A stretch of DNA of 64,000 nt from an uncultured delta proteobacterium (lineage in GTDB: Bacteria; Desulfobacterota; Binatia; UBA9968). The notes below the pieces were generated by a model. That model searched no databases and was not told the DNA's origin. It saw only the letters and a program-made list of their open reading frames with translations. This document shows, piece by piece, positions 3,600 to 54,553 of the stretch. The position numbers and the translations under genes are program-made. Positions within the stretch are counted from its first letter, which is position 1. The number at the start of each line of letters is the position of its first letter. The stretch is taken from contig CAWFJP010000003.1 in assembly GCA_963816145.1 (NCBI GenBank), positions 96,001-160,000 of the forward strand, given 5' to 3'.

Positions 3600-3633
3600 A
3601 AGGAATCTAACCTAACTTTTGATACTGCAAGCG

Positions 3634-31774: not shown

Positions 31775-31990
31775 ATGGAACAAACAAAAGCAACACGAGG
31801 TGTGAACGAGTGCTAAATCACGAACAACAATATTCGATTTGGCCAGTGAAAAAATCGATTCCTCTCGGTTGGGAAAATGCGGGGAAGGAGGGGCCCGAGG
31901 GCGGATTGTCTGGCTTATATCAAGGAAGTGTGGACCGATATAAGATCGCTACGCTTGAAAAACATCGTGAGAAACAACTCCAAGGAATAG
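31775..31990 (+). pseudogene. MbtH-like protein, frameshifted
   Basis: [24 protein letters not shown] in one frame and [19 protein letters not shown] in another; the ATG at 31775 is also out of frame. Confidence 0.85.
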
Positions 31991-32068
31991 CAACGCGGCT
32001 GGGTTTAATGAAATCCATATTTATTTGTTAGTGGCGTACACTTATCGAAGCCGGAAAGTTTTTGTCTT

Positions 32069-41000: not shown

Positions 41001-44000
41001 GGGATCTTGTTCGGCGGCGCGCCGACGGGGACATCGAGTACTTGGGCCGCATCGACAACCAGGTCAAGATCCGCGGCCATCGCATCGAATTGGGTGAAAT
41101 CGAAACTGTGATCGCCCAACATCCTGAGGTGCGCGAGAGCGTGGTCTTGGCCCGCGAGGATGTAGCAGGGGATAAGCGATTAGTGGCTTACCTCGTAGCG
41201 CGGCAGGACCTCAGTCCCGGCAACGCGGAGCTTCGCAAATTTATCAAGCAGCGACTGCCTGAATACATGATCCCCTCCGCTTTGGTGCTGCTGGATGAAT
41301 TGCCATTGACAGCAAATGGCAAAGTCGACCGCAAGGCCCTGCCGGCACCGGAGCAAGTCAGATCGAACTCAGGAGCGATCTATAGCGCGCCTCGGACTCC
41401 AGCGGAAGAATTGCTCGCCGGTATCTGGGCCGAGATTCTCAAGCTCGACAAGGTCGGCATCCATGACAACTTTTTCCACCTGGGTGGCCATTCCCTGATA
41501 GCCACTCAGGTCGTCTCGCGCATCAATAAAGCGTTCCAGATCGATTTCCCTTTGCGCCGATTGTTCGAATCGCCAACCATTGCCAGCCTCGCCGACTCGG
41601 TCCAGGCTAGTATGGAAATCGAGAAAGACTCACGCACAGTTCGATCCATCGTGCCGGTTCCGCGCAGCAACCACACCCCGCTCTCTTTCGCTCAAGAGCG
41701 TTTATGGTTCTTGGACCGTCTCGATTCCGGTCGCCCAACCTATAACATCCCGGCAGCGTTCCGCTTGGCCGGCGATCTCAACCTCAACGCTCTGGAACAA
41801 AGCCTCAATGAACTCGTGCGCCGCCACGAAGCTCTGCGCACGGTCTTTGCCACCGTCAATGGCAATCCAGTGCAAAAGATCTTGCGGTCGTTGGTTTTTT
41901 CGCTGACTCCCATCGACCTGAGCGAGCTTCCAGAACACGAACGCGAACCGGCTCTACAATCCTTGCTCAAAGAAGAAGCCGAGCGGCCCTTCGATCTTAG
42001 CCGTGGGCCGCTGATACGGTCTCGGCTTTGGCGTTTCGCCCCGCACGACCACGTGCTCGCCTTGAACATGCACCAAATCGTTTCCGACGGTTGGTCCATG
42101 GGCGTGCTCTACCGCGAGCTCTCGGCACTTTATCGAGCCTGCTGCGCGGGAGTGCGTAATCCCCTGCCCGAGCTCCCGATCCAATACGCGGATTATGCCC
42201 TCTGGCAGCGCGATTGTTTCCAAGGCGAAAAACTCGACGAGCAAGTTTGCTACTGGAGAAAGCAACTCGACGGTCTTTCGACCCTACAGCTCCGCACCGA
42301 TCATGCCCGTCCGGCCATGCAAACTTACCGGGGATCGAGCCAATCCATAGAGCTTTCGCCGCAACTTTCCCAGGCGCTTAAGGGCCTGAGCCAGCGCGAC
42401 GGCGTAACCCTGTTCATGACCCTGCTGGCGGCCTTTCAAACCTTGCTCTGCCGCCACTGCGGCCAGCAAGATATTGCCGTGGGCACTCCCATCGCTGGCC
42501 GTGCCCGTCAGGAGAGCGAGGGACTGATCGGTTTTTTCGTCAACACCCTGGTCCTGCGCGCCGATCTTTCCAACAACCCGACCTTCAAGGAACTACTGGG
42601 GCAAGTCCGCGAAACGACTCTGGAAGCCCATACTCATCAAGACCTGCCGTTTGAGAAGCTCGTCGAGGAACTCCATCCTGAGCGCAACCCCAGCATCTCG
42701 CCATTGTTCCAGGTCTTTTTCGAACTCCAGAACGCCGGCGATCCCTCCTTGGACCTTGGAGGACTCAGCGCGATTCCGATTCACACCTCTAGCAGCACCG
42801 CAAAGTTTGACCTCTCGCTTACCCTAACCGATCGGCAGGGTGATCTACGAGCCTCGCTCAACTACAATACCGATCTATTCGATGCCTCCACGATTGCGCG
42901 TATGCTCGCTCATTTTCAGACGTTGCTCGAAGGCATCGTCGCTAACCCGGACCAACGGGTCAGCGAACTGCCGATTTTGACCGAAGCCGAAAAGCACCAA
43001 CTGTTAGTCGAGTGGAACAACACCCAGTCCGATTACCCCAAAGACATATGCATTCACCAGATGTTTGAGGAGCAGGTGGAGAAATCTCCTGATGCAATCG
43101 CTGTGGTCTTCAAAGACCAGCAGCTCACCTACCGGGAACTCAATTGCCGCACGAACCAACTCGCGCGTTACTTACAAAAGCTCGGCGTCGGACCCGATGT
43201 GCTCGTCGGCATCTACGTTGAACGGTCCATAGAAATGATCGTCGGGGTGCTAGGGATTCTCAAAGCAGGCGGCGCCTACCTGCCAATCGACCCCGACTAT
43301 CCACGCGAACGGATTGAATTCATGCTTGAAGATAGCCGTGCTGCTTTTTTGTTGACTCAAGCGCAGATCGATGTACTCGAGCCAACCTTTGCCGGCGTTC
43401 GCATTGCTATTGACCAGGACTGGCAAGAGATCGCGCGTGAGAGCATAACCAATGTCGGCCAACAACTTGACCCTAAAAACCTCGCCTATGTGATCTACAC
43501 CTCGGGTTCAACCGGAAAACCCAAGGGAGTCATGATTCAACATAGCAGTGTGGTTAATTTGCTGGCTTCGATGGCGCGCCAACCCGGCTTGAGCGAAACG
43601 GACATCCTACTTGCGGTCACTACGTTCTCCTTCGATATCGCCGGACTGGAAATGTACTTGCCGCTAACCGTAGGCGCGCGCATAGTAGTGGCGCGCCGAG
43701 ATGTCGCCACCGATGCTTTGAGACTGGCACAGCTATTGTCAGACTGTGGCGCGACGGCAATGCAGGCAACCCCCGCAACTTGGCGCATGCTTTTGGCAGG
43801 TGGTTGGCAAGGCAGTCGAGAATTGAAAATCCTCTGCGGCGGTGAAGCGCTTGCTGACGACTTGGCCATGCAGCTCGTGCAACGCTGCGCTTCGCTCTGG
43901 AATATGTATGGTCCCACGGAAACTACCATCTATTCGGCCATCCAGAGAGTGGCGACGAATGTCAGCAGAGTTACTTTGGGGCGGCCCATCGCCAATACCC

Positions 44001-44998
44001 AGCTTTATATTCTTGACGGCAACCTTCAGCCCGTACCCATTGGAGTGTCAGGAGAGATCTATATTGGTGGAGACGGCTTAGCCCGGGGTTATTTAGGCCG
44101 TCCTGAACTGACCAGAGAAAAATTCATAGCCAATCCATTCAGTGTCGATACTACAAGCCGCCTCTATAAGACCGGCGATCTAGCTCGCTACTTGCCTGAC
44201 GGTAACATCGAATTTTTGGGACGAATGGACCATCAGGTGAAACTCCGCGGTTATCGCATCGAACTCGGTGAGATCGAGGCGGTGCTTGGACAACATCCCG
44301 CGATCCGGCAGGCGGCTGTGCTCGCACGGGAAGTTGATCCTGAAGATCGTGCGGTTTCGCCCGGAACCGACACGCGGCTGGTGGCGTACGTGGTCGCTCG
44401 ACCAGAAATTTCGACGAATGAACTAAGAAGCTTTGTGAAACGGAAATTACCGGAATTCATGGTGCCATCGGCGTTCGTAATGCTCGAAAGTCTACCGCTC
44501 ACCCCCAACGGCAAGCTAGACAGAAAAGCCCTGCCGGCAGCGGATCAGGGTAGACCGGATCTAGAAGTAGGCTACATCGCCCCTCGTACAGCTACGGAGG
44601 CGTTGTTGGCCGGGGTTGCGGCCGGGGTTCTGAAGCTGGACCGGGTCGGCATCCATGACAACTTCTTTGACTTGGGCGGTCATTCGCTGCTCGCCACCCA
44701 GCTTATCTCCCGCATATGGGAAACCTGCCAGGCCGAGATCCCCTTGCGCTTCCTGTTCGAGAGCCCAACCATCGCAGGCTTGGCCGAGCGCATCGATCAA
44801 GTTCGTGGTCATGGAGAGAGAAGACATGCCCGCCTAAAGTTTTCTACCGACCCGCGAGGAGAGAGTTCCGCTCTCCTTTGCGCAGCAGCGGTTGTGGTTC
44901 TTGGACCAGTACGAGCCGAACAGTTCGGTTTACAACATCCCCAGCGCACTGCGTCTCAAAGGATCATTAGACATCGCGGCCCTGGAGCAAAGTCTTAA
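32069..44998 (+). CDS. NRPS modules 1-4: (C-A-T)x4, continuing by frameshift into the next ORF
   Basis: 4309 aa. Manually read specificity codes: DAFWLGGTFK (Val-like), DSTKIGHVGK (Asp-like), DFWNIGMVHK (Thr), DILQLGMIYK (Gly-like). Four GGHSL T domains; the last ~50 aa are out-of-frame C-domain sequence. Confidence 0.93.
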   Translation: MQIEDSYPLTPIQHGMLVHSLSAPQSGVYIQQLVSVLREKLNLSAFQRAWEQVLRRHPALRTSFFWENTEQPVQRVHRDVVLPLQNLDWRDRDLDDQENQLERFLQSDRQLGFHLDQAPLMRLTLIRCAQTEYRLIWTSHHGLFDGRSRVLLLNEVFAFYEAICRGDNLNLSNPPPYRSYIDWLQKQNISKAETFWRTRLKDLNAGQSLAENHRQATPQPAQSYGKKTVRLSKTDTRALRSMVGRYQLTPNTLLQGAWSLLLSRYSGEEVVVFGATRAGRHAAFEGADSVVGLLINTVPVPVHVSPNSRLLPFLQSLRSQWIAMRDYEHTPLVKIHEWSPLSPGQPLFDNLLVFENYQLNALMREQGEQWKARDFHLRGTTHYPLTVAGYLGPHLSLEITYDHQLFDDETIERMLDHLRTLLVEMIHQPNRQLVDIPLLSPTERHQLLCEWNETKTDYPKDECIHELFEIQTEKTPDAIALICDNEQLTYRELNSRANRLAHFLDKLGVGPDMLVGICMERSIEMIVGLLGILKAGGAYVPFDPCYPEERLEFMLGDTHVHIVLTDVIGLASLPATSARVVCLDRDWEAIAKEPEVNSSSRSTADSLAYVIYTSGSTGLPKGVEVRHRGVVRLLFGVDYVQLDRAQTIVQLAPLSFDAATFEVWGALLHGGKCVLFPEKVPSPGELEELLKKYQVTTLWLTAALFNLVINEEPQALSGVKQLLVGGEALSVPHVRKGLAELPGTEIINGYGPTESTTFTCCYRIPRELDEGLSSIPIGRPIGNTQVYILDPYLNPVPIGVAGELHVGGDGLARGYLNLSELTAEKFVKHPFSNDPHARLYKTGDRARYLPDGNIEFLGRIDNQVKLRGYRIELGEIETVLNQNPAIRDAVVTLREDSPGDKRLIAHVVTHQQSSPTNNELKNYLREKLPEYMVPSAFLFLESLPLTPNGKVDRKALPGPDHSRPELDVAFAIPATPVEEILANIWAEILKLDTVGIHDNFFHLGGHSLIATQIVSRINQSFQIDFPLRKLFESPTIAGLAERIDQSLGQQQVPTLLIPAVPRAKDPPLSFAQQRLWFLDQYEPNSSVYNIPSALRLKGSLDIAALEQSLNEIVRRHESLRTTFAAVDGEPLQLIAPALRMSVPITDLTHHSASDREHEAQRLATEQAREPFDLSQGPLLRVLLLCLGQDDHVLVLSMHHIVSDGWSRGVFYHELSMLYQAYTQGNPSPLSELPIQYADFAVWQRQWLQGEVLEDQLSYWKKQLAGAPALLQLPTDRPRPAVQSYRGAVQSIELSQELAQGLQALSARQGVTLFMTLLAVFQTLLYRYTGQNDIVVGSPIANRNRAEIEGLIGFFVNTLVMRTDLSGNPTFKELLTRVRETALGAYTHQDLPFEKLVEELHPQRSLSQSPLVQVLFVMQNTPDIAATLDGLRVVAMPIDAETAKFDLTFSLAESSEGLKGFWKYSTELFDKTTIDTMIGHFHVLLQAIAADPDRRIGELLLLSEEERRRLLVEWNDTARDYPKDKCIHKLFEEQAERSPDAIAVVFEDQRLTYEQLNRQANQLARHLMDLGVGPEVLVGIYLERSQEMAIALLGVLKAGGAYVPLDPSYPNDRLAVMLEDSHLAVVLTDKKYSGRFGHAAMVCLERDRAKIARRNDTNFEAKVSAKNLAYVVYTSGSTGKPKGVAVEHQSLVNYTWEIVRRLKPASNNSFAMVQPLTVDSCITMIFPSLISGSVLHVVSRERALSADELGDYLQRESIDFLKIAPSHLGALQQAGSPPQLMPRRCLIIGGEGSRWEWARSLQTLAPNCTVLNHYGPTETTVGVLIYPMRPADSNQEHPLGTPLGRPIANTQAYVLDGSLRPVPVGVTGELYIGGDSLARGYLNQPKLTRERFIADPFSEDPAARLYKTGDVVRYLSDGNIEFLGRIDDQIKIRGFRVEPAEVEAVLLKHPQVAQAVVAPGDTTEAQTLIAYVVPAADRQPSLSDLRDFVKTKLPEYMVPSNFLLLDALPRTAHGKVDRKSLPPLDRSRRAPEASDVVRRKATEELLASIWTELLNLDEVGIQDNFFDLGGHSLLAMQLISRIRDVFRIELSLRSLFEAPTVVGLARRIELAKQQSSMFKALPITPEAIDNHCPLSFSQERFWFFEQLAPNNSANHLTHGFRLTGPLNIEALERSFAEIVRRHETLRTTFQLRNGKPVQTIAGHWSFRISIADLSKEPPDDLDREIQRLFEAEQRQGFDLTADLMLRATLLRLSLNDHVLFFSRHHIAWDHWCLELFYRELSNLYRAFSNGKPSPLPQLPIQYRHHALWQRKAFEEGEFERHLVYWRRQLSGTPPGLNLPHDYPRKPLGKRRGSRKRLVLPKSLSGGLRALSRERGVTLFMTFLAAFQTLLHRLTGENDIVVGTPVAGRDRSEIEGLIGLFLNTLALRTDFSDDPNFLELLRRVREVALGAYDHQELPFEKLIEELQPQRDLTQTPIFQLFINMYNFNEAGVELDRLTVTPMRPVEQGPQFDIEFFVREHDDGTHCIFLYDLDLFDAATIDRMLGHFQILLEGIVRDPDRRVSELPLLTDAEKQQLLIEWNDPRVNYPKNQCIHQLFEQQVEKTPDTVAIVFDDQQVTYGEVNNRANQLAHYLHNLGVGPEVLVGICVERSFEMIVGILAILKAGGAYVPLDPSYPKERLAFILEDSRAAVLISQSSLIAGLPVHNATVLCLDQDWGEISTQSQDNPPPLTTPDNLAYVIYTSGSTGTPKGALIPHHNVVRLFRATDSWFHFGPDDVWTLFHSYAFDFSVWELWGALVHGGRLVIVPFDVSRSPREFYELLCREQVTVLNQTPSAFRQLVQAEESITDTSRLGLRLVIFGGEALDFQSLRPWFERHGDQRPRLINMYGITETTVHVTYREIKEADLSVGGSSLIGAPIPDLELYVLDSHRNLVPIGLPGELYVGGAGLARGYLNRSGLTAERFVGHPFDDGEGRRLYRSGDLVRRRADGDIEYLGRIDNQVKIRGHRIELGEIETVIAQHPEVRESVVLAREDVAGDKRLVAYLVARQDLSPGNAELRKFIKQRLPEYMIPSALVLLDELPLTANGKVDRKALPAPEQVRSNSGAIYSAPRTPAEELLAGIWAEILKLDKVGIHDNFFHLGGHSLIATQVVSRINKAFQIDFPLRRLFESPTIASLADSVQASMEIEKDSRTVRSIVPVPRSNHTPLSFAQERLWFLDRLDSGRPTYNIPAAFRLAGDLNLNALEQSLNELVRRHEALRTVFATVNGNPVQKILRSLVFSLTPIDLSELPEHEREPALQSLLKEEAERPFDLSRGPLIRSRLWRFAPHDHVLALNMHQIVSDGWSMGVLYRELSALYRACCAGVRNPLPELPIQYADYALWQRDCFQGEKLDEQVCYWRKQLDGLSTLQLRTDHARPAMQTYRGSSQSIELSPQLSQALKGLSQRDGVTLFMTLLAAFQTLLCRHCGQQDIAVGTPIAGRARQESEGLIGFFVNTLVLRADLSNNPTFKELLGQVRETTLEAHTHQDLPFEKLVEELHPERNPSISPLFQVFFELQNAGDPSLDLGGLSAIPIHTSSSTAKFDLSLTLTDRQGDLRASLNYNTDLFDASTIARMLAHFQTLLEGIVANPDQRVSELPILTEAEKHQLLVEWNNTQSDYPKDICIHQMFEEQVEKSPDAIAVVFKDQQLTYRELNCRTNQLARYLQKLGVGPDVLVGIYVERSIEMIVGVLGILKAGGAYLPIDPDYPRERIEFMLEDSRAAFLLTQAQIDVLEPTFAGVRIAIDQDWQEIARESITNVGQQLDPKNLAYVIYTSGSTGKPKGVMIQHSSVVNLLASMARQPGLSETDILLAVTTFSFDIAGLEMYLPLTVGARIVVARRDVATDALRLAQLLSDCGATAMQATPATWRMLLAGGWQGSRELKILCGGEALADDLAMQLVQRCASLWNMYGPTETTIYSAIQRVATNVSRVTLGRPIANTQLYILDGNLQPVPIGVSGEIYIGGDGLARGYLGRPELTREKFIANPFSVDTTSRLYKTGDLARYLPDGNIEFLGRMDHQVKLRGYRIELGEIEAVLGQHPAIRQAAVLAREVDPEDRAVSPGTDTRLVAYVVARPEISTNELRSFVKRKLPEFMVPSAFVMLESLPLTPNGKLDRKALPAADQGRPDLEVGYIAPRTATEALLAGVAAGVLKLDRVGIHDNFFDLGGHSLLATQLISRIWETCQAEIPLRFLFESPTIAGLAERIDQVRGHGERRHARLKFSTDPRGESSALLCAAAVVVLGPVRAEQFGLQHPQRTASQRIIRHRGPGAKS
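35267..36312 (+). repeat. About 1.05-kb near-identical C-domain duplication (copy 1)
   Basis: Matches 44868-45913 at a constant offset of 9601; shadow ORFs of both copies are nearly identical. Confidence 0.92.
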
Positions 44999-45913
44999 CG
45001 AGATCGTGCGGCGCCATGAATCGCTGCGGACGACCTTTGCAGCGGTTGACGGCGAACCGCTTCAGCTGATCGCGCCGGCACTGAGGATGTCGGTGCCGAT
45101 AACCGATCTGACCCATCATTCCGCAAGCGACCGTGAGCACGAAGCGCAAAGACTGGCGACCGAGCAGGCGCGCGAGCCGTTCGATCTTTCCCAAGGCCCG
45201 CTGCTCAGAGTCCTGCTGCTTTGTCTCGGCCAAGACGATCACGTTTTGGTTTTATCGATGCATCATATCGTATCGGACGGCTGGTCGAGGGGGGTGTTTT
45301 ACCACGAGTTGTCCATGCTCTACCAAGCCTACACCCAGGGCAACCCCTCGCCGCTTTCCGAGTTGCCGATTCAATACGCTGATTTTGCCGTCTGGCAGCG
45401 CCAGTGGCTGCAAGGAGAGGTGTTAGAGGACCAGCTATCCTACTGGAAAAAACAACTTGCCGGGGCCCCGGCTTTGCTCCAACTTCCCACCGATCGGCCG
45501 CGACCGGCAGTGCAGAGTTATCGCGGCGCGGTCCAATCGATAGAACTGTCCCAAGAGCTGGCCCAGGGACTCCAAGCGCTCAGCGCTCGACAAGGGGTGA
45601 CCTTGTTCATGACTCTGTTAGCGGTCTTCCAAACCCTGCTTTACCGCTACACAGGACAAAACGACATCGTTGTCGGCTCGCCGATCGCCAACCGCAACCG
45701 GGCTGAGATAGAGGGGCTGATCGGGTTTTTTGTCAACACCCTGGTACTGCGCACCGATCTCAGCGGTAATCCGACATTCAAAGAGTTGTTAACCCGAGTG
45801 AGAGAGACGGCTCTCGGCGCCTACACGCATCAGGACCTGCCCTTTGAAAAGCTCGTCGAAGAACTCCACCCCCAACGCAGCCTCGGGCGGTCGCCGCTGG
45901 TTCAGGTGCTGTT
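44868..45913 (+). repeat. About 1.05-kb near-identical C-domain duplication (copy 2)
   Basis: Matches 35267-36312 with only scattered substitutions. Confidence 0.92.
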
Positions 45914-48900
45914 CAACTTTCTTGAAACACAAAACGACCGGCTGTCCCTTCCCGGTTTAGATGCATCGCCGTTCGGAGCCATTGCCATACCCTCTAAATT
46001 CGACTTAACGCTGTACGCCGTCCCGAAGTCGGAGCGGCTCACTTTGACAGTCAGTTACAATGTTGATCTGTTTGACGACACAACCATTAGCCGCATGCTC
46101 GGGCACCTTTGCTCGCTTCTGGCGGCTGTCACAGCGGACTCCGATCGTCGTTTGTCGGAACTGCCACTTTTGACCGACGACGAAAGGCGCCAATTGCTGG
46201 TGGAGTGGAGCGGCTCGGAACCTCACACACCCGAACATCGCTGTATCCAGCACCTCTTTGAAGCTCAGGTTCAGCGAACCCCGGATGCCATCGCGCTCAC
46301 CGACGAGCACCTTAGCTTGACCTACTCCGAGCTCGATGGACGGGCTAATCAGTTTGCCCGTTACCTCAGAACGCGCGGCGTGGCATCGGAAGACTTGATC
46401 CCGATCTTTATGGAGCGCGGCTGCGATATGGTGATCGCGGTGCTAGGGATTCTCAAAGCCGGCGCCGCCTACGTGCCGCTGGATTTTGACTATCCCAGGA
46501 TGCGCCTTGCCTACATGCTGGGAGACACGCGGGCGACTCTGCTGGTAACCAGTGCGCCGTGTCTCAACCGACTACCGGAGTACAAGGGAGAAATCATTTG
46601 CTTTGATCGGGATCGGCACCTCTTTGAGAAAGAATCTGCTGGCAATCCTAGTTGGGCGACGAGTGCCGCCGATCTTTGCTATGTGTATTACACGTCGGGC
46701 TCCACGGGAACGCCTAAAGGAGTCCTCACATCGCACAGAGGACTCGCGCGCTACTGTGATTTTCTCGCCGACGCTTACAATCTCAATAGTACAGATAGCG
46801 TCCTGCAGCTGGCGTCCTTTTCTTTCGACGCTTCGGTCCGCGACATGATCGCTCCGTTGACGGTCGGGGCGCGGGTCGTGCTGGTGAACCAACAGGGAGC
46901 CAAAGACCCGACGGTGCTGATCTCCAAGATCAAGCAAGAACGGATAACTTGTCTGCTCAGCACGGTGCCGCCGATGCTCAACGAGCTGGCCGAAACCATG
47001 CTAGCTGAGGTCAGCCCGAGACACGACAGCCTCCGTCTCATCCTGGTGGGAGGCGAGGCTCTGCGCGGGTCTTTATGCCGCAAGGTTCATGAGGTTTTTG
47101 GAGAAAATACTTTGTTGGTTAATCAGTACGGTCCGACCGAATGCACAATGACCTCGAGCTATCATCCGATCTCGTTGGCCGACCACCAGCACCCGACCGC
47201 GCCGATCGGTCGACCGATTCCGCATACGCAGCTTTATGTATTGGATGACGACTTCAACCCAACGCCCGTGGGAATAGAAGGCGAGCTATACATAGGCGGC
47301 GAAGGGTTAACCCTAGGGTATCTCAATCGTCCCGATCTAACTGCTGAAGGATTTATTCCCCATCCCTATAGCAACAAGCCGGGGGAGCGGCTGTACAGAA
47401 CCGGAGACGTTGTTCGGTATCGCTCCGACGGCATTTTCGATTTCGTCGGTCGCCGTGATGGGCAGGTCAAAATCCGCAGCATCCGCATCGAGCTGGGAGA
47501 GATCGAGTCGGTGCTCGGCCAACATCCGAAAGTACGTGAAGCCGTCGTTCTAGCACCAGAGGATAGCACCGGAGAGAAGCAGTTGGTCGCTTACGTTGTA
47601 GCGCAACAGGAAGCCGCACCCACCGATTCGAAGTTACGCGACTTTCTCAAACAGCGGTTGCCCGAACACATGGTACCCGCGTTTTTCGTGTTCCGTCCTG
47701 CTCTACCGCGTAGCCCCAACGGCAAGGTGGACCGTAAGGCGCTTCCTGCCCCGGACTTTAAACGCCGTGAAACCAATGCCACCTTCGCGGCGCCGCGTAG
47801 TGTCTTTGAAATCAAACTCGTAAAACTCGCCGCCGAGATCTTGAAAATAGATAAGGTCGGCATTCACGACAACTTGTTCGACCTGGGCCTACACTCCTTG
47901 TCCGCCACACAGCTAGTATCCCGCGTGCGCACCAAGCTGGGCAGAAAACTGCCACTGCGGCATATTTTTGAGGCGCCGACGATCGCCGGGCTCGCTAGGT
48001 TGATCGAGACACTCGCCGATGAGAACAACCCTGAGCCGATCGCGAGCGGCCAGAAAGCCGAAACGGAATTGATCCCTAAACGTATCCCGAACAAGACCCT
48101 GTCTTCTCAACGGGTCAATGGCGACGCCAGGCCGCTATCGATCGAACGACGATCGCTGCTGTCGCTTCTGTCCGCCGGAAAGATCCAGCCCGTCGATGCC
48201 GCCGCGTTGAGTTATTTGTCGGAGGACTTTTTCCAGCACATGGGGTTGTCGCCCGATGCGGCTCTTTATGACTGGTTCGACGAACTACCCTGCGTGTTCG
48301 GCATCAATGAAACCCACCTGGGCCGGATAGCCAATATCGGGTTGCCTCGGCTGCGCTCCCGCCTATACGACGATCAATCGGATCTCGTCAGCTTGATTCT
48401 CGACGCCTTGGAAATATCCCATCGCATCGGGGCACGTGTTGTTTCCTTGACCGGCTTGCTGCCCTCGGCAACCAACTACGGGCAGGCTGTCGCGGAGGTC
48501 ATTTCCGCAAACGATCGCTATCCTCTCGTCACCACCGGTCATGCGACGACTGTGTCCACCGTCGTCATGACCATCGAAAGGATTTTGCGCGAAGCGGGCA
48601 AAATCCTGGCGGAGGAAAAGGTCGCATTCCTCGGGCTGGGATCCATTGGTTACACCACGCTTCGCCTCATGCTTCACAGCCTGCCCCATCCAAAGTCGAT
48701 TACGCTTTGTGATATTTATAGCAAGCTCGATCACCTAAAAAGCATTCGCGACGACCTGATTCATGACTTGCAATTCGCCGGCTCCATTCGGATAGTCGAG
48801 TCCAAAGGAGAAGTGCCTCGGGAAGTTTACGCCGCCGGCCTCATTGTCGGAGCCACCAATGTGCCCGATGTGCTGAATATCGAACAGATCAGACCAGGAA

Positions 48901-49316
48901 CCGTGATCGTCGACGACTCGGGTCCGCATTGCTTCAATCCCGATGAGGCTGTGCAGCGCTTTAAAGCCGACGAGGATATTCTATTCACTGCCGGCGGCGT
49001 TCTTCGGCTCCCGGAACCTTTCCAGCGCACTCTGTATTTGCCTCAACGGGTGCAGGAACAGATGCCGCCAGCTGTCCTCGATGCCATATCCAGATACAAT
49101 CCGGTCAATCTCGGCGGCTGCGTGCTTTCAGGGCTGCTCACGGCGCGTTATGAACATTTGACGCCGACGATCGGCGTGGTCGATGACGCGTCTTCAAAGT
49201 CGCACTATCAAGTGCTCCAGGGATTAGGCTATCAGGCGGCTGCCCTGCAGTGCCGCGGCTATACTCTGCCCGAAGAGTCCGTGCGAAAATTTCGAAAACG
49301 ATTCGGTTATGTATGA
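44892..49316 (+). CDS. NRPS module 5: C-A-T plus C-terminal NAD(P)-binding acyl-ACP-reductase-like domain
   Basis: The frame is open upstream as FLPTREERVPLSFAQQRLWFLD, so there is no genuine start; HHIVSDGWS; YTSGSTGTPKG; LGLHSLS; terminal VSLTGLLPS, VTTGH, AFLGLGSIG, IVDDSGP and LGGCVLSGLL. Confidence 0.88.
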   Translation: MWFLDQYEPNSSVYNIPSALRLKGSLDIAALEQSLNEIVRRHESLRTTFAAVDGEPLQLIAPALRMSVPITDLTHHSASDREHEAQRLATEQAREPFDLSQGPLLRVLLLCLGQDDHVLVLSMHHIVSDGWSRGVFYHELSMLYQAYTQGNPSPLSELPIQYADFAVWQRQWLQGEVLEDQLSYWKKQLAGAPALLQLPTDRPRPAVQSYRGAVQSIELSQELAQGLQALSARQGVTLFMTLLAVFQTLLYRYTGQNDIVVGSPIANRNRAEIEGLIGFFVNTLVLRTDLSGNPTFKELLTRVRETALGAYTHQDLPFEKLVEELHPQRSLGRSPLVQVLFNFLETQNDRLSLPGLDASPFGAIAIPSKFDLTLYAVPKSERLTLTVSYNVDLFDDTTISRMLGHLCSLLAAVTADSDRRLSELPLLTDDERRQLLVEWSGSEPHTPEHRCIQHLFEAQVQRTPDAIALTDEHLSLTYSELDGRANQFARYLRTRGVASEDLIPIFMERGCDMVIAVLGILKAGAAYVPLDFDYPRMRLAYMLGDTRATLLVTSAPCLNRLPEYKGEIICFDRDRHLFEKESAGNPSWATSAADLCYVYYTSGSTGTPKGVLTSHRGLARYCDFLADAYNLNSTDSVLQLASFSFDASVRDMIAPLTVGARVVLVNQQGAKDPTVLISKIKQERITCLLSTVPPMLNELAETMLAEVSPRHDSLRLILVGGEALRGSLCRKVHEVFGENTLLVNQYGPTECTMTSSYHPISLADHQHPTAPIGRPIPHTQLYVLDDDFNPTPVGIEGELYIGGEGLTLGYLNRPDLTAEGFIPHPYSNKPGERLYRTGDVVRYRSDGIFDFVGRRDGQVKIRSIRIELGEIESVLGQHPKVREAVVLAPEDSTGEKQLVAYVVAQQEAAPTDSKLRDFLKQRLPEHMVPAFFVFRPALPRSPNGKVDRKALPAPDFKRRETNATFAAPRSVFEIKLVKLAAEILKIDKVGIHDNLFDLGLHSLSATQLVSRVRTKLGRKLPLRHIFEAPTIAGLARLIETLADENNPEPIASGQKAETELIPKRIPNKTLSSQRVNGDARPLSIERRSLLSLLSAGKIQPVDAAALSYLSEDFFQHMGLSPDAALYDWFDELPCVFGINETHLGRIANIGLPRLRSRLYDDQSDLVSLILDALEISHRIGARVVSLTGLLPSATNYGQAVAEVISANDRYPLVTTGHATTVSTVVMTIERILREAGKILAEEKVAFLGLGSIGYTTLRLMLHSLPHPKSITLCDIYSKLDHLKSIRDDLIHDLQFAGSIRIVESKGEVPREVYAAGLIVGATNVPDVLNIEQIRPGTVIVDDSGPHCFNPDEAVQRFKADEDILFTAGGVLRLPEPFQRTLYLPQRVQEQMPPAVLDAISRYNPVNLGGCVLSGLLTARYEHLTPTIGVVDDASSKSHYQVLQGLGYQAAALQCRGYTLPEESVRKFRKRFGYV

Positions 49317-49345: not shown

Positions 49346-51217
49346 GTGATGTTTACGCACCAACTTTTTGAAGCCCAGGCCAGAGAGACGCCGGACAATG
49401 TCGCGCTGGTTTATGGCGAGGATTCACTTACCTATCGCGAACTCGATTGCCGTGCCAATCAACTGGCGCGCCGCCTGCGCTCACTCGGGGTGGTTCCAGA
49501 GGTGCCAGTGGGCATCTGCATGGAGCGTTCCGTGGAATTGGTGATTGCGGTCCTGGCGCTGCTCAAAGCCGGCGGCGCCTATGTCCCGCTGGACCCGTCG
49601 AATCCCCAAGAGCGTCTATCTTTTATCGTTAATGAAACTCGGCCCAAAGTGCTGCTCGCTCAAGAACGGCTGTTGCAATGTCTTCCCGAAGTTGACGCAA
49701 AATCAATCTGCTTGGATACCGATTGGAGCACAGTATCCGCCGAAAGCGTCGATCCTGTTGAAAATTTAACTAACAGCGAAAACCTGGGCTTTCTGATCTA
49801 CACTTCGGGTTCCACCGGAGAACCCAAAGCGGTAATGCTGCCCCATCGCCCGCGTGATCCGCGCACTTCCCATGAGCAAAAGCTTTACCAAATGACCGCC
49901 AAGGACCGCCATATCCTAAAAAGTTCGATTAGTTTTACGCTGATACTTCGCGAACTTTTCTGGCCGCTTTTGACTGGCGCTCGTTTAATCATCAGTCCAC
50001 CGGGCACGGAAACCGATATGGACTATCTGCTTCAACTCATCGCGAAACACCAGATTAGTATTATCACGCTGACTCCTTCCACGCTTCGAGCCGTCCTATC
50101 CCAGAATGGGCTTGAGCGCTGCGATAGCCTGCGACACATCGTCTGTTTCGGCGAGCCTTTGACCGCGGATCTGCAATCGCTCTATTTTGCCAAACTGTCG
50201 GCGGAATTGAGTCTCTACTACGGCACCACAGAGGCTCCGAGCGCTACCTACCGCAAATGCCAACCGTTCGAATCGCAAACGATTACGGAAATGGGGCAAA
50301 CACTACCGGGCGTGCAATTGCGCTTGCTCAACGAATCTCTGGAGAGTGTTCCGGACGGAACCTGCGGTGAAATCTATCTGGGAGGGAAACTGGCCCGCGG
50401 CTATTTCAAACGTCCAGACCTGACGGCAGAAAAATTCATTCCTCATCCTTTCAGTCAGGAGCCAGGTGCACGCCTTTATAAAACCGGCGATCTCGGTCGC
50501 CTTTTGCCCGGCAATAGCATCGAATTCGTCGGTCGCGTGGATGATCTGGTCAAGGTCCGAGGTTTCCGCGTCGAGTTGGGGGAAATCGCCAAAACCATTC
50601 GTCAACATCCCGAGATTAATGATGCTGTGGTCGTCGCCCTTGATGCCGATTCCGATCGCAGCCGGATCGTGGCCTATGCCGTGCTCAAACCGAGATCGAC
50701 CATCGGCGCCACCGATCTTCGCTCGTTTATGCGATTAAAGTTGCCCGACTACATGGTCCCTGCGAGATTTATTTTCTTAGACGGTTTGCCGGTATCGCGT
50801 AATGGTAAGATTGACCGTAAAGCACTTCCTATTCCTGGACGGTCGAGGCCGGAGCTGAATACGCCGCTCATCAGCCATAGAACGCCTCTTGAAAAAGATC
50901 TGGCGCGAATTTGGTGCGACGTTCTTGAGCTGGATCAGATCGGCATACATGACAATTTTATTGATTTGGGAGGGGATTCGTTGGCGGCCACACGAATCAT
51001 ATCCCGGGTAATTGCCAACTTTCAGATAGAAATTCCTCTTCGGGCCTTGTTCCAATCACCAACCGTCGCTGAAATGGCGTGCGTCATTTCTCAACACGAA
51101 GTTAATAAACTGGAGCAACACGATCTGACAAAAATCCTTGACGAACTGGAGTGTCTCGGAGAAGAAGAGGCGCGTCGCTTGGCAAATAAAGTAACTTTAA
51201 AGCCGGCGAAAAAATGA
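49346..51217 (+). CDS. Stand-alone A-T NRPS protein with atypical A-domain pocket
   Basis: YTSGSTGEPK, YKTGD, VKVRGFRVE, NGKIDRK and LGGDSL; FTLI replaces FDxS. Confidence 0.88.
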   Translation: MMFTHQLFEAQARETPDNVALVYGEDSLTYRELDCRANQLARRLRSLGVVPEVPVGICMERSVELVIAVLALLKAGGAYVPLDPSNPQERLSFIVNETRPKVLLAQERLLQCLPEVDAKSICLDTDWSTVSAESVDPVENLTNSENLGFLIYTSGSTGEPKAVMLPHRPRDPRTSHEQKLYQMTAKDRHILKSSISFTLILRELFWPLLTGARLIISPPGTETDMDYLLQLIAKHQISIITLTPSTLRAVLSQNGLERCDSLRHIVCFGEPLTADLQSLYFAKLSAELSLYYGTTEAPSATYRKCQPFESQTITEMGQTLPGVQLRLLNESLESVPDGTCGEIYLGGKLARGYFKRPDLTAEKFIPHPFSQEPGARLYKTGDLGRLLPGNSIEFVGRVDDLVKVRGFRVELGEIAKTIRQHPEINDAVVVALDADSDRSRIVAYAVLKPRSTIGATDLRSFMRLKLPDYMVPARFIFLDGLPVSRNGKIDRKALPIPGRSRPELNTPLISHRTPLEKDLARIWCDVLELDQIGIHDNFIDLGGDSLAATRIISRVIANFQIEIPLRALFQSPTVAEMACVISQHEVNKLEQHDLTKILDELECLGEEEARRLANKVTLKPAKK

Positions 51218-52156: not shown

Positions 52157-52549
52157 AATCGTGACTGAATCTCAACTTTGCTTCCTGTGCAGCCTTTCCC
52201 GCCCGGGCATCCACCCGCCAATCATGATGCTCCGCTAAGCCAGTGTAAATGCTTGTATCAAATTGAACATCCGGCCGCTGAATCACGATTCCAGTGGGCG
52301 CGAAAGTGAAGTCGCCAAATCGCAAACCGTGGGCAGTTCAAAGATCAGAGTGAGCGGCAGATCCACCCGATAACAACGAAGGGGACCAGCGGATTCGGAA
52401 CACAGGATCCTTCCACCCTGACTTATTCACGTTGCTGTTAGACCCTGTCAGATTCACATTGCTATGACACTCCGGTCCAATTCCTGTTGAAAGAAAACCC
52501 CGCTCTGTGCAATACATGGTGGCCCAATACATGTGCATGGGGCCACCAT

Positions 52550-53551
52550 ATGACTGTAAATGAGATCAAAAATAGGTCGAGAGAAATCGAATTCGGAGTC
52601 CTTCTCCATACACGGCATTTGATTCGCAACGACGGACTAGCGCCTTCGTTTAAGACCATGTGGGAAGAGGCCGCACTTGCTGAAAAGCTCGGCATGGATC
52701 ACGTGTGGATTGGCGATAGCGTGACCGTATTAGACAGGGCGAGGGGTGACTGTCTAACCCTGATGGCTTCCCTTGCGATGAAAACAACCCGCCTCAAAAT
52801 TGGCACTGTGCCTCTTCTTCCCGCCATGCGTCCCCCGGTATTGCTAGCTCACACTCTCGCGACGCTCGACGTGATCTCACAGGGCCGTGTTCTAATTGGC
52901 GCCAGTGTCGCTCCGTCACTCCCCTACATACAGCATCAGTTCGAAGCATGCGGCGTTCCGTATTCCGAAAAGGCCGGTCGACTTAGCGAATCGATCCAAA
53001 TCATGAAGCGGTTATGGACAGAAAAAACGGTAAGCTTCGAAGGCAAATATCACAAGCTCCAGGATGTCGGCATATTACCCCATCCCATTCAACAGCCGAG
53101 TATCCCAGTGTGGGTGACAGCGGACCGTAGCGAAAACGCTTTCAAGCGCGTCGCGCGCTTGGCCGACGGTTGGTTCACGTCGGGTTCTCGCCCAGTGGAG
53201 AAATTTGCGATAAACCGGAATAAAATTCAGGCTTACGCGGAAACCTATGGCAGACGAAATTGGGATTTGCCATCGGGTATTTATGCCACGTTCAATCTGG
53301 ATACAAACCGGGAAAAGGCCATAGAAGAGGGATGGAAGTGGGCGATGGATTTTTTTCTTCAACCGAAGGCGAATTTGGATCATCTCTTTACTATCTTTGG
53401 AACACCGGATGACTGTGTCCAACTTCTCCAGACGTATGTTGATGCGGGGCTTACGGTAATCGTTGCCCGTTTGGCTTCCTCTGATGTTGAAAGGCAAATG
53501 CGACTGTTGATTGAGGAGGTAAAGCCTCGGCTGAGACCCCGAGTTGTATAG
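52550..53551 (+). CDS. LLM-class flavin-dependent oxidoreductase
   Basis: AEKLGMDHVWIGD, TTRLKIGT, LATLDVISQGR, PIQQPSIPVWV and RVARLADGW. Confidence 0.9.
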   Translation: MTVNEIKNRSREIEFGVLLHTRHLIRNDGLAPSFKTMWEEAALAEKLGMDHVWIGDSVTVLDRARGDCLTLMASLAMKTTRLKIGTVPLLPAMRPPVLLAHTLATLDVISQGRVLIGASVAPSLPYIQHQFEACGVPYSEKAGRLSESIQIMKRLWTEKTVSFEGKYHKLQDVGILPHPIQQPSIPVWVTADRSENAFKRVARLADGWFTSGSRPVEKFAINRNKIQAYAETYGRRNWDLPSGIYATFNLDTNREKAIEEGWKWAMDFFLQPKANLDHLFTIFGTPDDCVQLLQTYVDAGLTVIVARLASSDVERQMRLLIEEVKPRLRPRVV

Positions 53552-53698
53552 TTCGGCGCTCGTCACGAAGGAACGCAGAGCGATCGTTGGAAGCTGTTCA
53601 TGGAAAGCGCGGTGGCTGGGTAGTCTACGCCCATCGACCGGCTCGAAAAATGAGATTGTCCTGAAATACAATTTCTCAGAATAAAAAAGGAGTGAGCT

Positions 53699-54553
53699 AT
53701 GAGTAAATCAACCCCTAGCGTTATCCGAATCGATCACGGCGTTATTCCGACCAACGATTTAGGAAAGTCGCTGTCTTTTTTTACCGATGTCCTGGGTGCT
53801 CGCTTTAATGCTCTCGTAAATGTCAACCTGCGTGGGCTTAATCGTGAAGTTCCGGAGATTGCGTTCTTTACGTTAGCAAACCACCGAGGATTCGGTCTTT
53901 CGCTCGAAGATCAACCCATTCCGCCACCGATTCGCCCCTTAGAAGGACCTGTATGGGGATTCGAGGTCGACGACCGCGGTTTGGCAGGTGTAATCGCGGC
54001 TTTAGACCATCGTAAAGTCGCTTACGAGGGACCCGTAGAATATGCCAAGCCCAGTCCGATTGCCGCGTCCCTCTTCATACGAGATGTCCATGATTTCAAC
54101 TACGAGTTTTCGGTGCGGCGTGACGGACAAAAGAGCACTGACCCCGGTCAGGGAGACTTGGGACTTCGTCGCATCAACCATGTCCGACTCGAGGTCACGG
54201 ATTTACCGCTTGCTGAGCGTTGGTACCTGGATACGCTGGGTTTGGGTCGAATCGACCCGGTACCAGGGGATCGCCAAGCATCACTGGTGGTAGCGGAGAC
54301 GGAGCAGATCTTTATCCTTCATGAAGTGTCGCAGATGACGCAACGAAGCCACTACTGCCGTGGCCCCCACGTAGATGTCAAGGTTCCTATTGGGTCATTC
54401 GAGCCGTTCGTCTCGAACTTAACCAACGTTGAGAAATACTGGAGTCCGTTCGGCAACCGCATCCCGTGGCATGAGCCAAATATGCAGACGGTCTATTTCT
54501 ACGATCCATTCGGCAATCGTCTGCAGGTGAGCGAAAATAGACCGCATCATTGA
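53699..54553 (+). CDS. Two-domain VOC (glyoxalase/extradiol dioxygenase superfamily) protein
   Basis: RIDHGVIPTNDL..FFTDVLG, RINHVRLEVTDL..WYLDTLG and YFYDPFGNRLQ; RBS AGGAG. Confidence 0.82.
   Translation: MSKSTPSVIRIDHGVIPTNDLGKSLSFFTDVLGARFNALVNVNLRGLNREVPEIAFFTLANHRGFGLSLEDQPIPPPIRPLEGPVWGFEVDDRGLAGVIAALDHRKVAYEGPVEYAKPSPIAASLFIRDVHDFNYEFSVRRDGQKSTDPGQGDLGLRRINHVRLEVTDLPLAERWYLDTLGLGRIDPVPGDRQASLVVAETEQIFILHEVSQMTQRSHYCRGPHVDVKVPIGSFEPFVSNLTNVEKYWSPFGNRIPWHEPNMQTVYFYDPFGNRLQVSENRPHH

What the first reader, a model, noticed from the sequence alone, without database searches (positions are those of the whole stretch)
48129..49316. NRPS ends in an acyl-ACP-reductase-like domain instead of a TE or SDR-type R domain
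Seen: about 395 aa after the last T domain with GARVVSLTGLLPS, VTTGHATT, KVAFLGLGSIG, IVGATN, IVDDSGP and LGGCVLSGLL. It lacks GxSxG (TE) and the N-terminal TGxTGFLG/YxxxK of canonical R domains. From recalled motifs, the order parallels cyanobacterial fatty acyl-ACP reductase/COG5322 (ITALGGFSS, TTGNT, VAVVGATGDIG, late catalytic Cys in FACFAE). Inference: release by transfer to Cys (TGC at 49119) and NAD(P)H reduction to a peptide aldehyde, a release chemistry I do not know to be characterised for NRPSs.
Basis: partly seen in the sequence, partly recalled or inferred. Interest (0 to 1): 0.8.

Follow-up and report, generated by a model that had tools for sequence, protein, structure and literature searches.

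The report
Known AAR-like terminal amidation domain (TAD)
The last 395 residues of this peptide synthetase really do fold like cyanobacterial acyl-ACP reductase with the catalytic cysteine in place, but they belong to the "terminal amidation domain" family described and crystallised in 2024-25, which is linked to amide-ended rather than aldehyde-ended peptides and whose chemistry is still unproven.

Summary
All six quoted motifs, the TGC codon at 49119 and the lack of TE and SDR-R motifs are as stated.

The domain is not new. It matches the CarI "terminal amidation domain" (TAD; PDB 9E4S/9E4X) at E 4e-120 without gaps. A predicted model (pLDDT 93.9) superposes on it at TM 0.94. Acyl-ACP reductase comes next at TM 0.63 and 16% identity. 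Cys331, TTGH, GxGxxG, Asp195 and DDSGP map exactly onto the published catalytic and NAD-binding residues.

The AAR-like fold and the cysteine are therefore right. Aldehyde release is not supported: the three family members with known products give terminal amides, and the conserved Asp points to NAD(H), not NADPH. No activity has been reconstituted in print.

This scan reached the same verdict on other DNA.

Added here:
- The gene is split by one extra base near 44855, which near-identical contigs from two runs lack.
- This TAD belongs to a cross-phylum subclade whose NRPS gene is followed by an extra carrier module with an unusual adenylation domain (Asp235 to Thr).

Verdict: new member of a known kind.

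The parts
48129..49316 (+). TAD-family domain (395 aa plus stop): a macrodomain-like N-lobe and a Rossmann C-lobe, fused after the last T domain
   Evidence: PDB sequence match to 9e4x/9e4s at E 4e-120, gapless over 5-393. AF2 model pLDDT 93.9. Foldseek TM 0.94 to CarI TAD and 0.63 to AAR.
49119..49121 (+). TGC codon for Cys331, equivalent to CarI Cys2238; putative acyl-enzyme nucleophile
   Evidence: Invariant in 49 of 49 sequences. Cys in 359 of 366 rows, the rest gaps. There is a constant offset of 1907 to CarI numbering in the gapless alignment.
48531..48542 (+). T135-T136-G137-H138, the invariant TTG motif (CarI 2042-2044) that positions the Cys
48633..48650 (+). G169-L-G-S-I-G174, the GxGxxG dinucleotide-binding loop (CarI 2076-2081)
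48711..48713 (+). Asp195 (CarI Asp2102), which selects NAD(H) over NADP(H)/CoA
   Evidence: Invariant in 49 of 49 and in 364 of 366 rows. Its role is taken from the paper.
48912..48926 (+). D262-D263-S-G-P266 loop (CarI 2169-2173); Asp263 stacks on the nicotinamide
44892..48128 (+). C-A-T of the last module (C 44892-46199, A 46257-47726, T 47814-48005) plus a ~45-aa linker
   Evidence: Pfam.
32069..44998 (+). Upstream NRPS reading frame, (C-A-T)x4, most likely one gene with 44856-49316
   Evidence: Pfam finds 4 C, 4 A and 4 T. Relatives P0124/P0126 run unbroken across the junction.
44851..44856 (+). Site of a one-base frame break between the two NRPS frames
   Evidence: Three-frame translation. 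tblastn switches frame between 44806 and 44856. Contigs of runs X3 and X5 lack one base at 44855.
49346..51217 (+). Free-standing A*-T didomain (623 aa). Its A domain has Thr in place of Asp235 (SISFTLILRELF) and YGTTEAP in place of YGPTE
   Evidence: Pfam. Motif and alignment. The same module follows the TAD gene in relatives.
31810..32031 (+). MbtH-like protein gene just upstream of the NRPS
   Evidence: Pfam PF03621 at E 2.6e-10.
17484..27593 (-). Divergent NRPS beginning with a formyltransferase domain (F-...A-T-C-A-T-C-A-T, 3369 aa); a possible initiation part of the same pathway
   Evidence: Pfam. A 67%-identical F domain lies in the TAD locus L052.
52487..53551 (+). Luciferase-like monooxygenase gene downstream. 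Its membership of the cluster is not shown.
   Evidence: Pfam PF00296. No counterpart was found downstream of the TAD in the loci scored (L001-L084; L200, L201).

Best explanation
Window 48129-49316 encodes a member of the terminal amidation domain (TAD) family, first described for CarI, VatR and HcaD. It is a two-lobed, NAD(H)-binding domain of acyl-ACP-reductase ancestry, fused after the last carrier domain of an NRPS.

Most likely mechanism:
1. The finished peptide on the adjacent T domain is passed as a thioester to Cys331. The phosphopantetheine arm enters through the same tunnel that binds NAD(H).
2. The acyl-enzyme is then resolved with nitrogen to release a linear peptide ending in a primary carboxamide.

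The synthetase is five C-A-T modules in one gene. The split in the window is a one-base difference. Three further modules on the opposite strand that start with a formyltransferase domain may also belong. The product would then be an uncharged linear peptide capped at both ends.

What is shown and what is inferred:
- Shown here: family membership, fold, conservation and exact register of every catalytic and cofactor residue, and C-terminal position.
- Shown elsewhere for CarI: NAD(H) binding and Ppant access to the Cys.
- Inferred: acyl transfer, the nitrogen source, the role of NAD, and the amide outcome in this organism.
For: Sequence: E 4.2e-120, gapless, to PDB 9e4x/9e4s.

Structure: the AF2 model (pLDDT 93.9, pTM 0.93) matches ten TAD chains at TM 0.91-0.94 with 48-49% identity. 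AAR follows at TMq 0.62-0.63, and everything after that is at or below 0.38.

Residues: T135-T136-G137, G169-G174, D195, D262-P266 and C331 all correspond to CarI 2042-2044, 2076-2081, 2102, 2169-2173 and 2238 at a constant offset of 1907. They are invariant or nearly so in 49 sequences and in 366 rows.

Position: in 240 of 240 homologues, at most 61 residues follow the matched part.

Product link: carmabin, vatiamide E/F and hectoramide B all carry terminal amides, and their last module ends in a TAD. VatR and Moorena JHB / SIO3A2 proteins are among the hits at about 50% identity.

No active-site divergence: no column separates the window's subclade from 69 other TADs.

Intact gene: contigs from two runs lack the extra base at 44855, and the relatives' proteins are continuous across the junction.
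Against: - No TAD has been shown to make an amide. CarI and VatR TADs released nothing from loaded carriers with NAD(H), metals, ammonia or any of the 20 amino acids.
- The amide link rests on three closely related cyanobacterial pathways (85-95% identical TADs). The window's domain is only about 48-50% identical to them and lies in another part of the tree.
- In this subclade an extra module follows the TAD gene. In L041 it carries a TE and sits last in a row of four overlapping one-module genes. The TAD may therefore not be the releasing domain here.
- The only curated family hit is a weak one to the PigE N-terminal region (E 7.8e-7). PigE and TamH domains of this superfamily are thioester reductases.
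- Rare relatives fuse the TAD to a TE or to an SDR-type R domain.
Confidence: 0.55

Rival explanations
1. One reading: the domain works like AAR, PigE-N and TamH-TR. The peptidyl chain is moved to Cys331 and reduced by NADH to a free peptide aldehyde, which is the released product or is processed further.
For: - AAR is the nearest solved non-TAD structure.
- The only curated family hit is the PigE N-terminal region.
- AAR-type domains in PtTamH (NADH-dependent, acts only on carrier-bound acyl) and PigE reduce thioesters to aldehydes.
- CarI TAD binds NADH slightly better than NAD+ (Kd 3.5 against 11.6 uM).
- The TAD authors themselves keep a reduce, aminate and re-oxidise route open.
- One relative (P0309) has an SDR-type R domain after the TAD.
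Against: - The known products of TAD pathways are amides.
- No release was seen with NAD(H) in vitro.
- Asp263 next to the nicotinamide is invariant in the TADs sampled here, though Rankin et al. report Tyr there in their mostly verrucomicrobial cluster 3. It is Gly in AAR and is argued to favour NAD+.
- The Pfam scans of the ORFs flanking the NRPS genes found no aminotransferase or aldehyde reductase.
Confidence: 0.2
2. In this subclade the TAD is not, or not alone, the releasing domain. It acts together with the extra A*-T module encoded next to it. That module might supply the nitrogen-bearing or acceptor substrate, or the TAD might modify what it carries. Final release is by another activity where one is present, such as the TE in L041.
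For: - A T235-type A domain occurs 8 times among the 159 A-domain rows that could be scored in 80 TAD loci plus the window. All 8 lie just downstream of the TAD gene. A ninth (L040) has the same GFT motif two columns off.
- Two further close relatives from metagenomes have it 84-85 bp after the TAD.
- In the TAD tree, 8 of the 9 rows in the window's group (SH-aLRT 95) have it. The ninth, L055, has only 1.4 kb downstream, and the same MAG holds an orphan A* contig, L199.
- The C domains in front of A* have lost the second His in 3 of 4 cases (HRIIADN, HRIISDD, HSIISDD). They are absent altogether from the window, L005 and L077 (Pfam), and the A* match in L200 and L201 likewise begins 84-85 bp after the TAD.
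- L041 has C-A-T | C-A-T | C-A-T-TAD | C*-A*-T-TE as four overlapping genes.
Against: - Cyanobacterial TAD loci, including those with known amide products, have no such module within 10 kb.
- The association may only reflect shared descent of a whole gene cluster.
- An A-T didomain that lacks Asp235, has a C-terminal tail and stands beside an NRPS starting with a C domain is equally well an ordinary loading module for a non-amino-acid cap. Gene order need not equal assembly order: in L052 the F-domain gene lies after it.
- The reverse test, whether A* modules occur without TADs, gave too few loci.
- The TAD active site of this subclade shows no fixed differences.
Confidence: 0.15
3. The gene is broken and the domain is not made, because the reading frame is interrupted about 3.3 kb upstream of the TAD.
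For: - The window shows two overlapping frames, 32069-44998 and 44892-49316. There is no ATG, GTG or TTG start before the C-domain core motif.
- The same-genus MAG locus L005 has its TAD gene in three frames.
Against: - Contigs that are 98.6% and 99% alike, from two runs of two studies, lack one base at 44855, which puts both parts in one frame.
- The downstream 1474 codons are open and 79-81% identical to intact relatives.
- All catalytic residues are kept.
Confidence: 0.04

Closest known systems
Terminal amidation domain (TAD) of CarI (carmabin), VatR (vatiamide E/F) and HcaD (hectoramide B); PDB 9E4S, 9E4U, 9E4X, 9E50, 9E56; Rankin et al., bioRxiv 10.1101/2024.10.28.620694 (introduction, results and discussion read)
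   Same: - Same length, fold (TM 0.94) and position after the last T domain.
- A gapless alignment.
- Every named functional residue is conserved: Cys, TTG, GxGxxG, the NAD-selecting Asp and the DDSGP loop.
   Different: - Only 48-50% identical, and from an uncultured soil/wetland 'delta proteobacterium' MAG lineage rather than a marine cyanobacterium.
- It lies in a different, cross-phylum branch whose gene is followed by an unusual A*-T module.
- The T-TAD linker is about 45 residues rather than 26.
- The product is unknown.
Cyanobacterial acyl-ACP reductase (AAR; PDB 6JZQ, 6JZU, 6JZY)
   Same: - Two-lobed fold (TMq 0.63, E 1e-13).
- A Rossmann lobe binding the nicotinamide next to a cysteine that takes the acyl chain from a phosphopantetheine carrier.
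   Different: - 15-16% identity, and no hit to any AAR family model in NCBIfam at E<=1.
- AAR is a free-standing monomer using NADPH, with Gly where TAD has Asp263.
- AAR hands a fatty aldehyde to ADO.
- The TAD N-lobe has extra elements and dimerises.
AAR-type thioester reductase domains fused to transaminases: PigE N-terminal domain (PMC8341465, passages read) and PtTamH C-terminal TR domain (PMC9594044, passages read)
   Same: - Same superfamily. The PigE model is the only curated family that the window's domain touches (E 7.8e-7).
- They act on carrier-bound thioesters in secondary metabolism.
- TamH uses NADH.
- Nitrogen is introduced right after the thioester step.
   Different: - They are fused to a PLP transaminase and make an aldehyde that becomes an amine.
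- Their substrates are fatty-acyl or polyketide-like chains, not peptides.
- They are not part of an NRPS module.
SDR-type NRPS terminal reductase (R) domains (Pfam PF07993 NAD_binding_4). The linear gramicidin example is recalled, not from a call.
   Same: A functional analogue: an NAD(P)H-dependent alternative to a TE at the end of an NRPS. Like linear gramicidin synthetase, this locus pairs a formyltransferase-led NRPS with a non-TE terminal domain.
   Different: An unrelated fold and mechanism, with Tyr/Lys catalysis directly on the carrier thioester and no Cys acyl-enzyme. No PF07993 hit and no TGxTGxxG motif here.
Glycine-extension / monooxygenase amidation (MtaG of myxothiazol), as summarised in Rankin et al.
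   Same: It gives a terminal primary amide on an assembly-line product. The window also has a luciferase-like monooxygenase gene (52487-53551) and an extra carrier module nearby.
   Different: That route needs a C-A(Gly)-MOx-T-TE module. Here the monooxygenase is a separate gene, is not conserved in related loci, and the extra A domain lacks the amino-binding Asp.

Membership tests
TAD (terminal amidation domain, CarI type) | About 400-aa two-lobed fold (macrodomain-like NTD plus Rossmann CTD) superposable on the CarI TAD structure | tested here: met
   AF2 pLDDT 93.9. Foldseek TM 0.91-0.94 and rmsd 1.7-2.7 to ten TAD chains.
TAD (terminal amidation domain, CarI type) | Invariant cysteine equivalent to Cys2238 at the start of a helix in the cleft | tested here: met
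   Cys331 (49119-49121). Conserved in 49 of 49, and in 359 of 366 rows with no substitutions. The model has a helix at 330-340.
TAD (terminal amidation domain, CarI type) | TTG motif, GxGxxG, the NAD-selecting Asp (2102) and the DDSG-cisPro loop (2169-2173) | tested here: met
   T135-T136-G137, G169-G174, D195 and D262-P266 are in exact register. The cis configuration of the Pro cannot be judged from sequence.
TAD (terminal amidation domain, CarI type) | Located at the C-terminus of a terminal NRPS (or PKS) module, after the carrier domain | tested here: met
   C-A-T-TAD then a stop. Whether the module is last in the assembly line is open, because an A*-T gene follows it.
TAD (terminal amidation domain, CarI type) | The pathway product carries a C-terminal primary amide | not testable with these tools
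   The product of this cluster is unknown. This needs isolation or heterologous expression.
Acyl-ACP reductase (AAR) family proper | Sequence membership of the curated AAR family | tested here: not met
   NCBIfam scan at E<=1 lists only PigE, SbnB-family and two FolD models, and no AAR model. Identity to AAR chains is 15-16%.
Acyl-ACP reductase (AAR) family proper | Free-standing NADPH-dependent enzyme | tested here: not met
   It is fused to an NRPS. Asp195 is conserved, and in CarI it blocks the 2'-phosphate of NADP(H). Cofactor use was not measured here.
Acyl-ACP reductase (AAR) family proper | Shared fold with the catalytic Cys in the equivalent place | tested here: met
   Foldseek E 1e-13, TMq 0.63 and TMt 0.72. 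The equivalence of Cys2238 and AAR Cys294 is taken from the paper and was not measured residue by residue here.
SDR-type NRPS R domain (PF07993) | N-terminal TGxTGxxG and a match to the NAD_binding_4 profile | tested here: not met
   No Pfam hit and no motif.
Type I thioesterase (PF00975) | GxSxG nucleophile elbow and an alpha/beta-hydrolase profile | tested here: not met
   No Pfam hit and no GxSxG.

The most novel reading that the evidence does not exclude
In a cross-phylum TAD subclade that includes this window, the TAD does not finish the job alone. It works with a dedicated extra carrier module encoded next to it. That module is A*-T, with the amino-binding Asp235 replaced by Thr and its C domain degenerate or lost. 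It could be the component that was missing when CarI and VatR TADs failed to turn over in vitro, either as the carrier of the nitrogen-donating or acceptor substrate or as the TAD's real substrate. Defining its cargo would then make the unsolved TAD chemistry testable.
Probability: 0.15. Interest if true: 0.65.

Novelty: new member of a known kind. Interest (0 to 1): 0.3.

Why it matters
TADs are a widespread alternative to thioesterases at the end of peptide assembly lines. How they release their product is still unknown, so each well-placed member is a candidate for solving the chemistry and for engineering amide-ended peptides.

This member by itself adds little. It confirms that the family reaches into uncultured soil and wetland bacteria and into an NRPS locus that also holds a formyl-initiated synthetase.

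The more useful by-products are two:
- A subclade of TADs travels with an unusual adenylation-carrier module.
- Rare TAD-TE, TE-TAD and TAD-R fusions exist.

Both bear on whether the domain really is the releasing step.

Tried and rejected
- Pfam and NCBIfam on the domain gave no family above threshold. There was only a sub-threshold FolD-type NAD-binding hit and a weak PigE hit.
- A literature search by PDB codes returned only unrelated papers.
- Searches for later work on the TAD found nothing beyond the 2024 preprint. The journal version, if there is one, is not in the library.
- The reverse association test for the A* module failed twice. The search for related loci with the A* alignment was swamped by the generic P-loop pattern and did not even recover the known A* loci. 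An exact DNA pattern for YGxTEAPxxTY gave 43 stretches. Only 5 were A* modules, of which 3 were already known. The other 2 (L172, L199) lie on contigs too short to show a TAD.
- A metagenome scan for close relatives gave only 2 loci.
- I looked for columns that distinguish the A*-associated TAD subclade from 69 other TADs and found none.
- The window's LLM, glyoxalase-like and 389-aa proteins have no counterparts downstream of the TAD in the loci scored (L001-L084; L200, L201), so I do not count them as part of the system.
- The careful tree search did not finish in 300 s, so the tree cited is the quick IQ-TREE run with SH-aLRT support only. L005 and L074 were dropped as short matches, and L001-L004 were left out as copies or pieces.
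- No complex prediction was run. A carrier domain docking on the TAD would not tell the cis T from the A*-T carrier.


Full report
**1.

Window 48129-49316 (+) translates to 395 residues and a stop. It is the tail of ORF 44892-49316. Pfam finds in that ORF a condensation domain (1-436), an adenylation domain (456-945) and a carrier domain (975-1038). Nothing reaches threshold on the last ~395 residues.

A script confirmed the details:
- Codon 49119-49121 is TGC (Cys331).
- There is no GxSxG and no TGxTGxxG.
- There is a single GxGxxG, at residue 169.

**2. What the domain is.**

A sequence search of the Protein Data Bank gave a gapless match over residues 5-393 at E 4.2e-120. The match is to five entries (9E4S, 9E4U, 9E4X, 9E50, 9E56) deposited as "amino acid adenylation domain protein". 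Foldseek titles them "TAD from Carmabin Biosynthetic Pathway", released February 2025.

The paper behind them is Rankin et al., bioRxiv 10.1101/2024.10.28.620694. I read its introduction, results and discussion. It describes:
- a ~400-residue "terminal amidation domain" at the end of the last NRPS module of the carmabin, vatiamide E/F and hectoramide B pathways, whose products end in primary amides;
- a macrodomain-like N-lobe and a Rossmann C-lobe;
- NAD(H) binding selected by Asp2102;
- an invariant Cys2238 next to the nicotinamide C4, reachable by the carrier's phosphopantetheine;
- invariant TTG and DDSG-cisPro motifs;
- a clear structural kinship to cyanobacterial acyl-ACP reductase.

In the gapless alignment, the window's T135-T136-G137, G169-G174, D195, D262-P266 and C331 sit at a constant offset of 1907 from those CarI residues.

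I aligned the domain with 48 homologues of 41-83% identity. G137, H138, G169, G171, S172, G174, D195, D262, D263, P266 and C331 are invariant.

An AlphaFold2 model built on that alignment has mean pLDDT 93.9 and pTM 0.93. Foldseek against the PDB gives:
- ten TAD chains first (E to 5e-54, TM 0.91-0.94, 48-49% identity);
- then AAR entries 6JZQ, 6JZY, 6JZU and 6JZZ (E about 1e-13, TMq 0.62-0.63, 15-16% identity);
- then generic NAD-dependent dehydrogenases at TMq 0.38 or below.

**3. Position and spread.**

Position:
- Among 240 homologues from two searches of the 5.8-billion-protein collection, the matched part ends within 61 residues of the C-terminus in all 240.
- Among the best 150 of 964 cluster representatives (698 at E<=1e-10, 486 at E<=1e-30), three have 300 or more residues after the domain.
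- Two of these have a thioesterase (P0281, P0311) and one has an SDR-type reductase domain (P0309).
- P0010 has a thioesterase before the TAD. P0218 is a PKS module ending in the TAD.

Spread:
- The window's own genome (7.8 Mb, 31 contigs) has one copy.
- Of 41 genomes searched (the window's own plus 40 relatives), 3 had a match. The two besides the window's own are one same-genus genome and one weak match.
- In the reference-genome collection, 222 stretches encode a relative. They come from Cyanobacteriota, Chloroflexota, Planctomycetota, Acidobacteriota, Verrucomicrobiota, Binatota, Gemmatimonadota and others.
- The nearest is an "uncultured delta proteobacterium" MAG at 89%.
- Near-identical DNA is held by soil and wetland metagenome runs: 20 rows from 17 studies.

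**4. How it most likely works.**

Membership of the TAD family is as firm as sequence and fold can make it. The chemistry is not.

For CarI, NAD(H) binding, the crosslink between the carrier's Ppant and Cys2238, its inhibition by NADH, and a dephospho-CoA disulfide at Cys2238 were shown. However, no release from loaded carriers was obtained with NAD(H), metals, ammonia or any amino acid. The authors propose transfer to the Cys followed by attack of ammonia from an unknown source. They keep open a reduce, aminate and re-oxidise route.

My searches found no later report of activity.

I take amide release via a Cys331 acyl-enzyme as the best-supported reading (0.55), because it is the only outcome tied to known products.

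Domains of the same superfamily do reduce carrier-bound thioesters to aldehydes:
- PtTamH does so with NADH and only on the carrier-bound acyl chain (PMC9594044, passages read).
- PigE's N-terminal domain is proposed to do so, with support from lysate experiments (PMC8341465, passages read).
- The PigE model is the only curated family the window's domain touches (E 7.8e-7).

These papers also mean that AAR-type reductive off-loading is not unprecedented in secondary metabolism, although not on peptidyl carriers.

**5. The gene and its surroundings.**

The ORF with the TAD starts, by the ORF finder, at a TTG inside the first core motif of its C domain. It overlaps the end of a 4309-codon NRPS frame, 32069-44998, which is (C-A-T)x4.
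- Two 79-81% identical relatives (P0124, P0126) are continuous across this junction. The match changes frame between 44806 and 44856.
- I laid contigs of four metagenome runs on 44300-45400. One contig each from X3 (515 nt, 7 other letters) and X5 (124 nt, 1 other letter) lacks one base at 44855. That puts both parts in one frame.
- The gene is thus most likely a single five-module NRPS of about 5750 codons. The break is an assembly error or a strain difference.
- The same-genus MAG locus L005 has its TAD gene in three frames, which suggests indel-prone assemblies.

Other genes nearby:
- An MbtH-like gene precedes the NRPS.
- On the other strand, 17484-27593 encodes a 3369-residue NRPS that begins with a formyltransferase domain.
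- A 67%-identical F domain lies in the TAD locus L052. The two synthetases may therefore belong together, giving a peptide blocked at both ends.

**6. An extra module that travels with this TAD subclade.**

Thirty bases after the TAD stop, 49346-51217 encodes a free-standing A-T didomain. Its A4 motif reads SISFTLILRELF, with Thr where all amino-acid-activating A domains have Asp235 (the role of Asp235 is recalled knowledge). Its A5 motif is YGTTEAP.

I scored every A domain found in the 80 genome loci and the window.
- 159 rows cover that column: 143 Asp, 8 Thr, 5 Gly, 2 Ala and 1 Ser.
- All 8 Thr domains lie just downstream of the TAD gene: the window, L005, L006, L041, L047, L052, L077 and L081.
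- L040 shows the same GFT motif two columns off.
- Two metagenome loci with 82-86% identical TADs have the same A*-T 84-85 bp after the TAD.

In a quick maximum-likelihood tree of 79 TADs, the window falls in a group of 9 rows (SH-aLRT 95) from five phyla.
- 8 of the 9 have the module.
- The ninth (L055) has only about 1.4 kb downstream, and its MAG holds an orphan A* contig, L199.

The module takes several forms:
- A*-T alone in the window, L005 and L077, and by tblastn position also in L200 and L201.
- C-A*-T in L006, L047 and L052.
- C-A*-T-TE in L041.
- A*-T-C in L081.
- Where a C domain is present, its HHxxxDG motif reads HRIIADN, HRIISDD, HSIISDD or HHIVSDS.

In L041 four one-module genes overlap head to tail: C-A-T, C-A-T, C-A-T-TAD, C*-A*-T-TE.

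Cyanobacterial TAD loci have no such module within 10 kb. The subclade's TADs show no fixed substitutions against the other 69.

Two readings fit:
- An ordinary loading module for a non-amino-acid cap. The big NRPS starts with a C domain, and the A*-T has a 45-residue C-terminal tail resembling that of the F-NRPS.
- A dedicated partner of the TAD.

I could not run the reverse test. I give the partnership 0.15.

**7. Verdict.**

The AAR-like fold and the cysteine are right. The claim of uncharacterised chemistry is overtaken by the 2024-25 TAD work. The aldehyde outcome is the less likely of two unproven alternatives.

Earlier follow-ups in this scan reached the same verdict on other genomes (e1-2080190, e1-2377808, e1-2570250). 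I checked it independently here.

This is a new member of a known kind, of modest interest. It carries one lead, the A*-T association, that may help those trying to reconstitute TAD activity.

Noticed in passing
window 44806-44856 (about 44855): A one-base frame break splits a five-module NRPS gene into 32069-44998 and 44892-49316. Near-identical contigs from two metagenome runs lack one base at 44855, and relatives are continuous there.
   Followed up: yes
window 49346-51217; also L005, L006, L040, L041, L047, L052, L077, L081, L200, L201: An unusual adenylation-carrier module (Asp235 to Thr, YGTTEAP in place of YGPTE) lies directly downstream of the TAD gene in one cross-phylum TAD subclade. 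Its C domain is absent or has lost the second His of HHxxxDG. Its substrate is unknown.
   Followed up: partly
window 32069-44998 (C domains at protein residues 2130-2579 and 3200-3651): Two of the four in-line C domains have non-canonical His motifs (HHIAWDH and HQIVSDG). The first C domain (HHGLFDG, with an N-terminus of the YPLTPIQ type) differs from the others and resembles the first C domain of L041.
   Followed up: no
window 17484-27593 (-): An NRPS led by a formyltransferase domain. A partial C-like stretch (residues 379-601) lies between the F domain and the first A domain. The protein ends in a T domain and has no release domain.
   Followed up: no
window 51080-51214 and 17484-17620 (-): The C-terminal tails after the last T domain of the A*-T protein and of the F-NRPS are alike: acidic, helical-looking, of the pattern ..LT..L.ELE....EA... 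They may be docking elements for the same acceptor.
   Followed up: no
proteins P0281, P0311, P0010, P0309, P0218: Rare architectures of the family: TAD followed by a thioesterase, a thioesterase followed by TAD, TAD followed by an SDR-type R domain, and a PKS module (KS-AT-KR-ACP) ending in TAD.
   Followed up: partly
many cyanobacterial hits (e.g. P0168, P0025): Precomputed Pfam lists show a PilZ domain (PF07238) in many Microcoleus, Laspinema and Nostoc NRPS proteins that end in a TAD. Its place and meaning were not examined.
   Followed up: no
L005 9106-11187: In the same-genus MAG, the orthologous TAD gene (88-89% identical) is spread over three overlapping frames. This suggests indel errors or decay in that assembly.
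   Followed up: no
window 52487-55899: A luciferase-like monooxygenase, a glyoxalase/dioxygenase-fold protein and a 389-aa protein without any Pfam family follow the A*-T gene after a 1.27-kb gap. None was found downstream of the TAD in the loci scored.
   Followed up: partly
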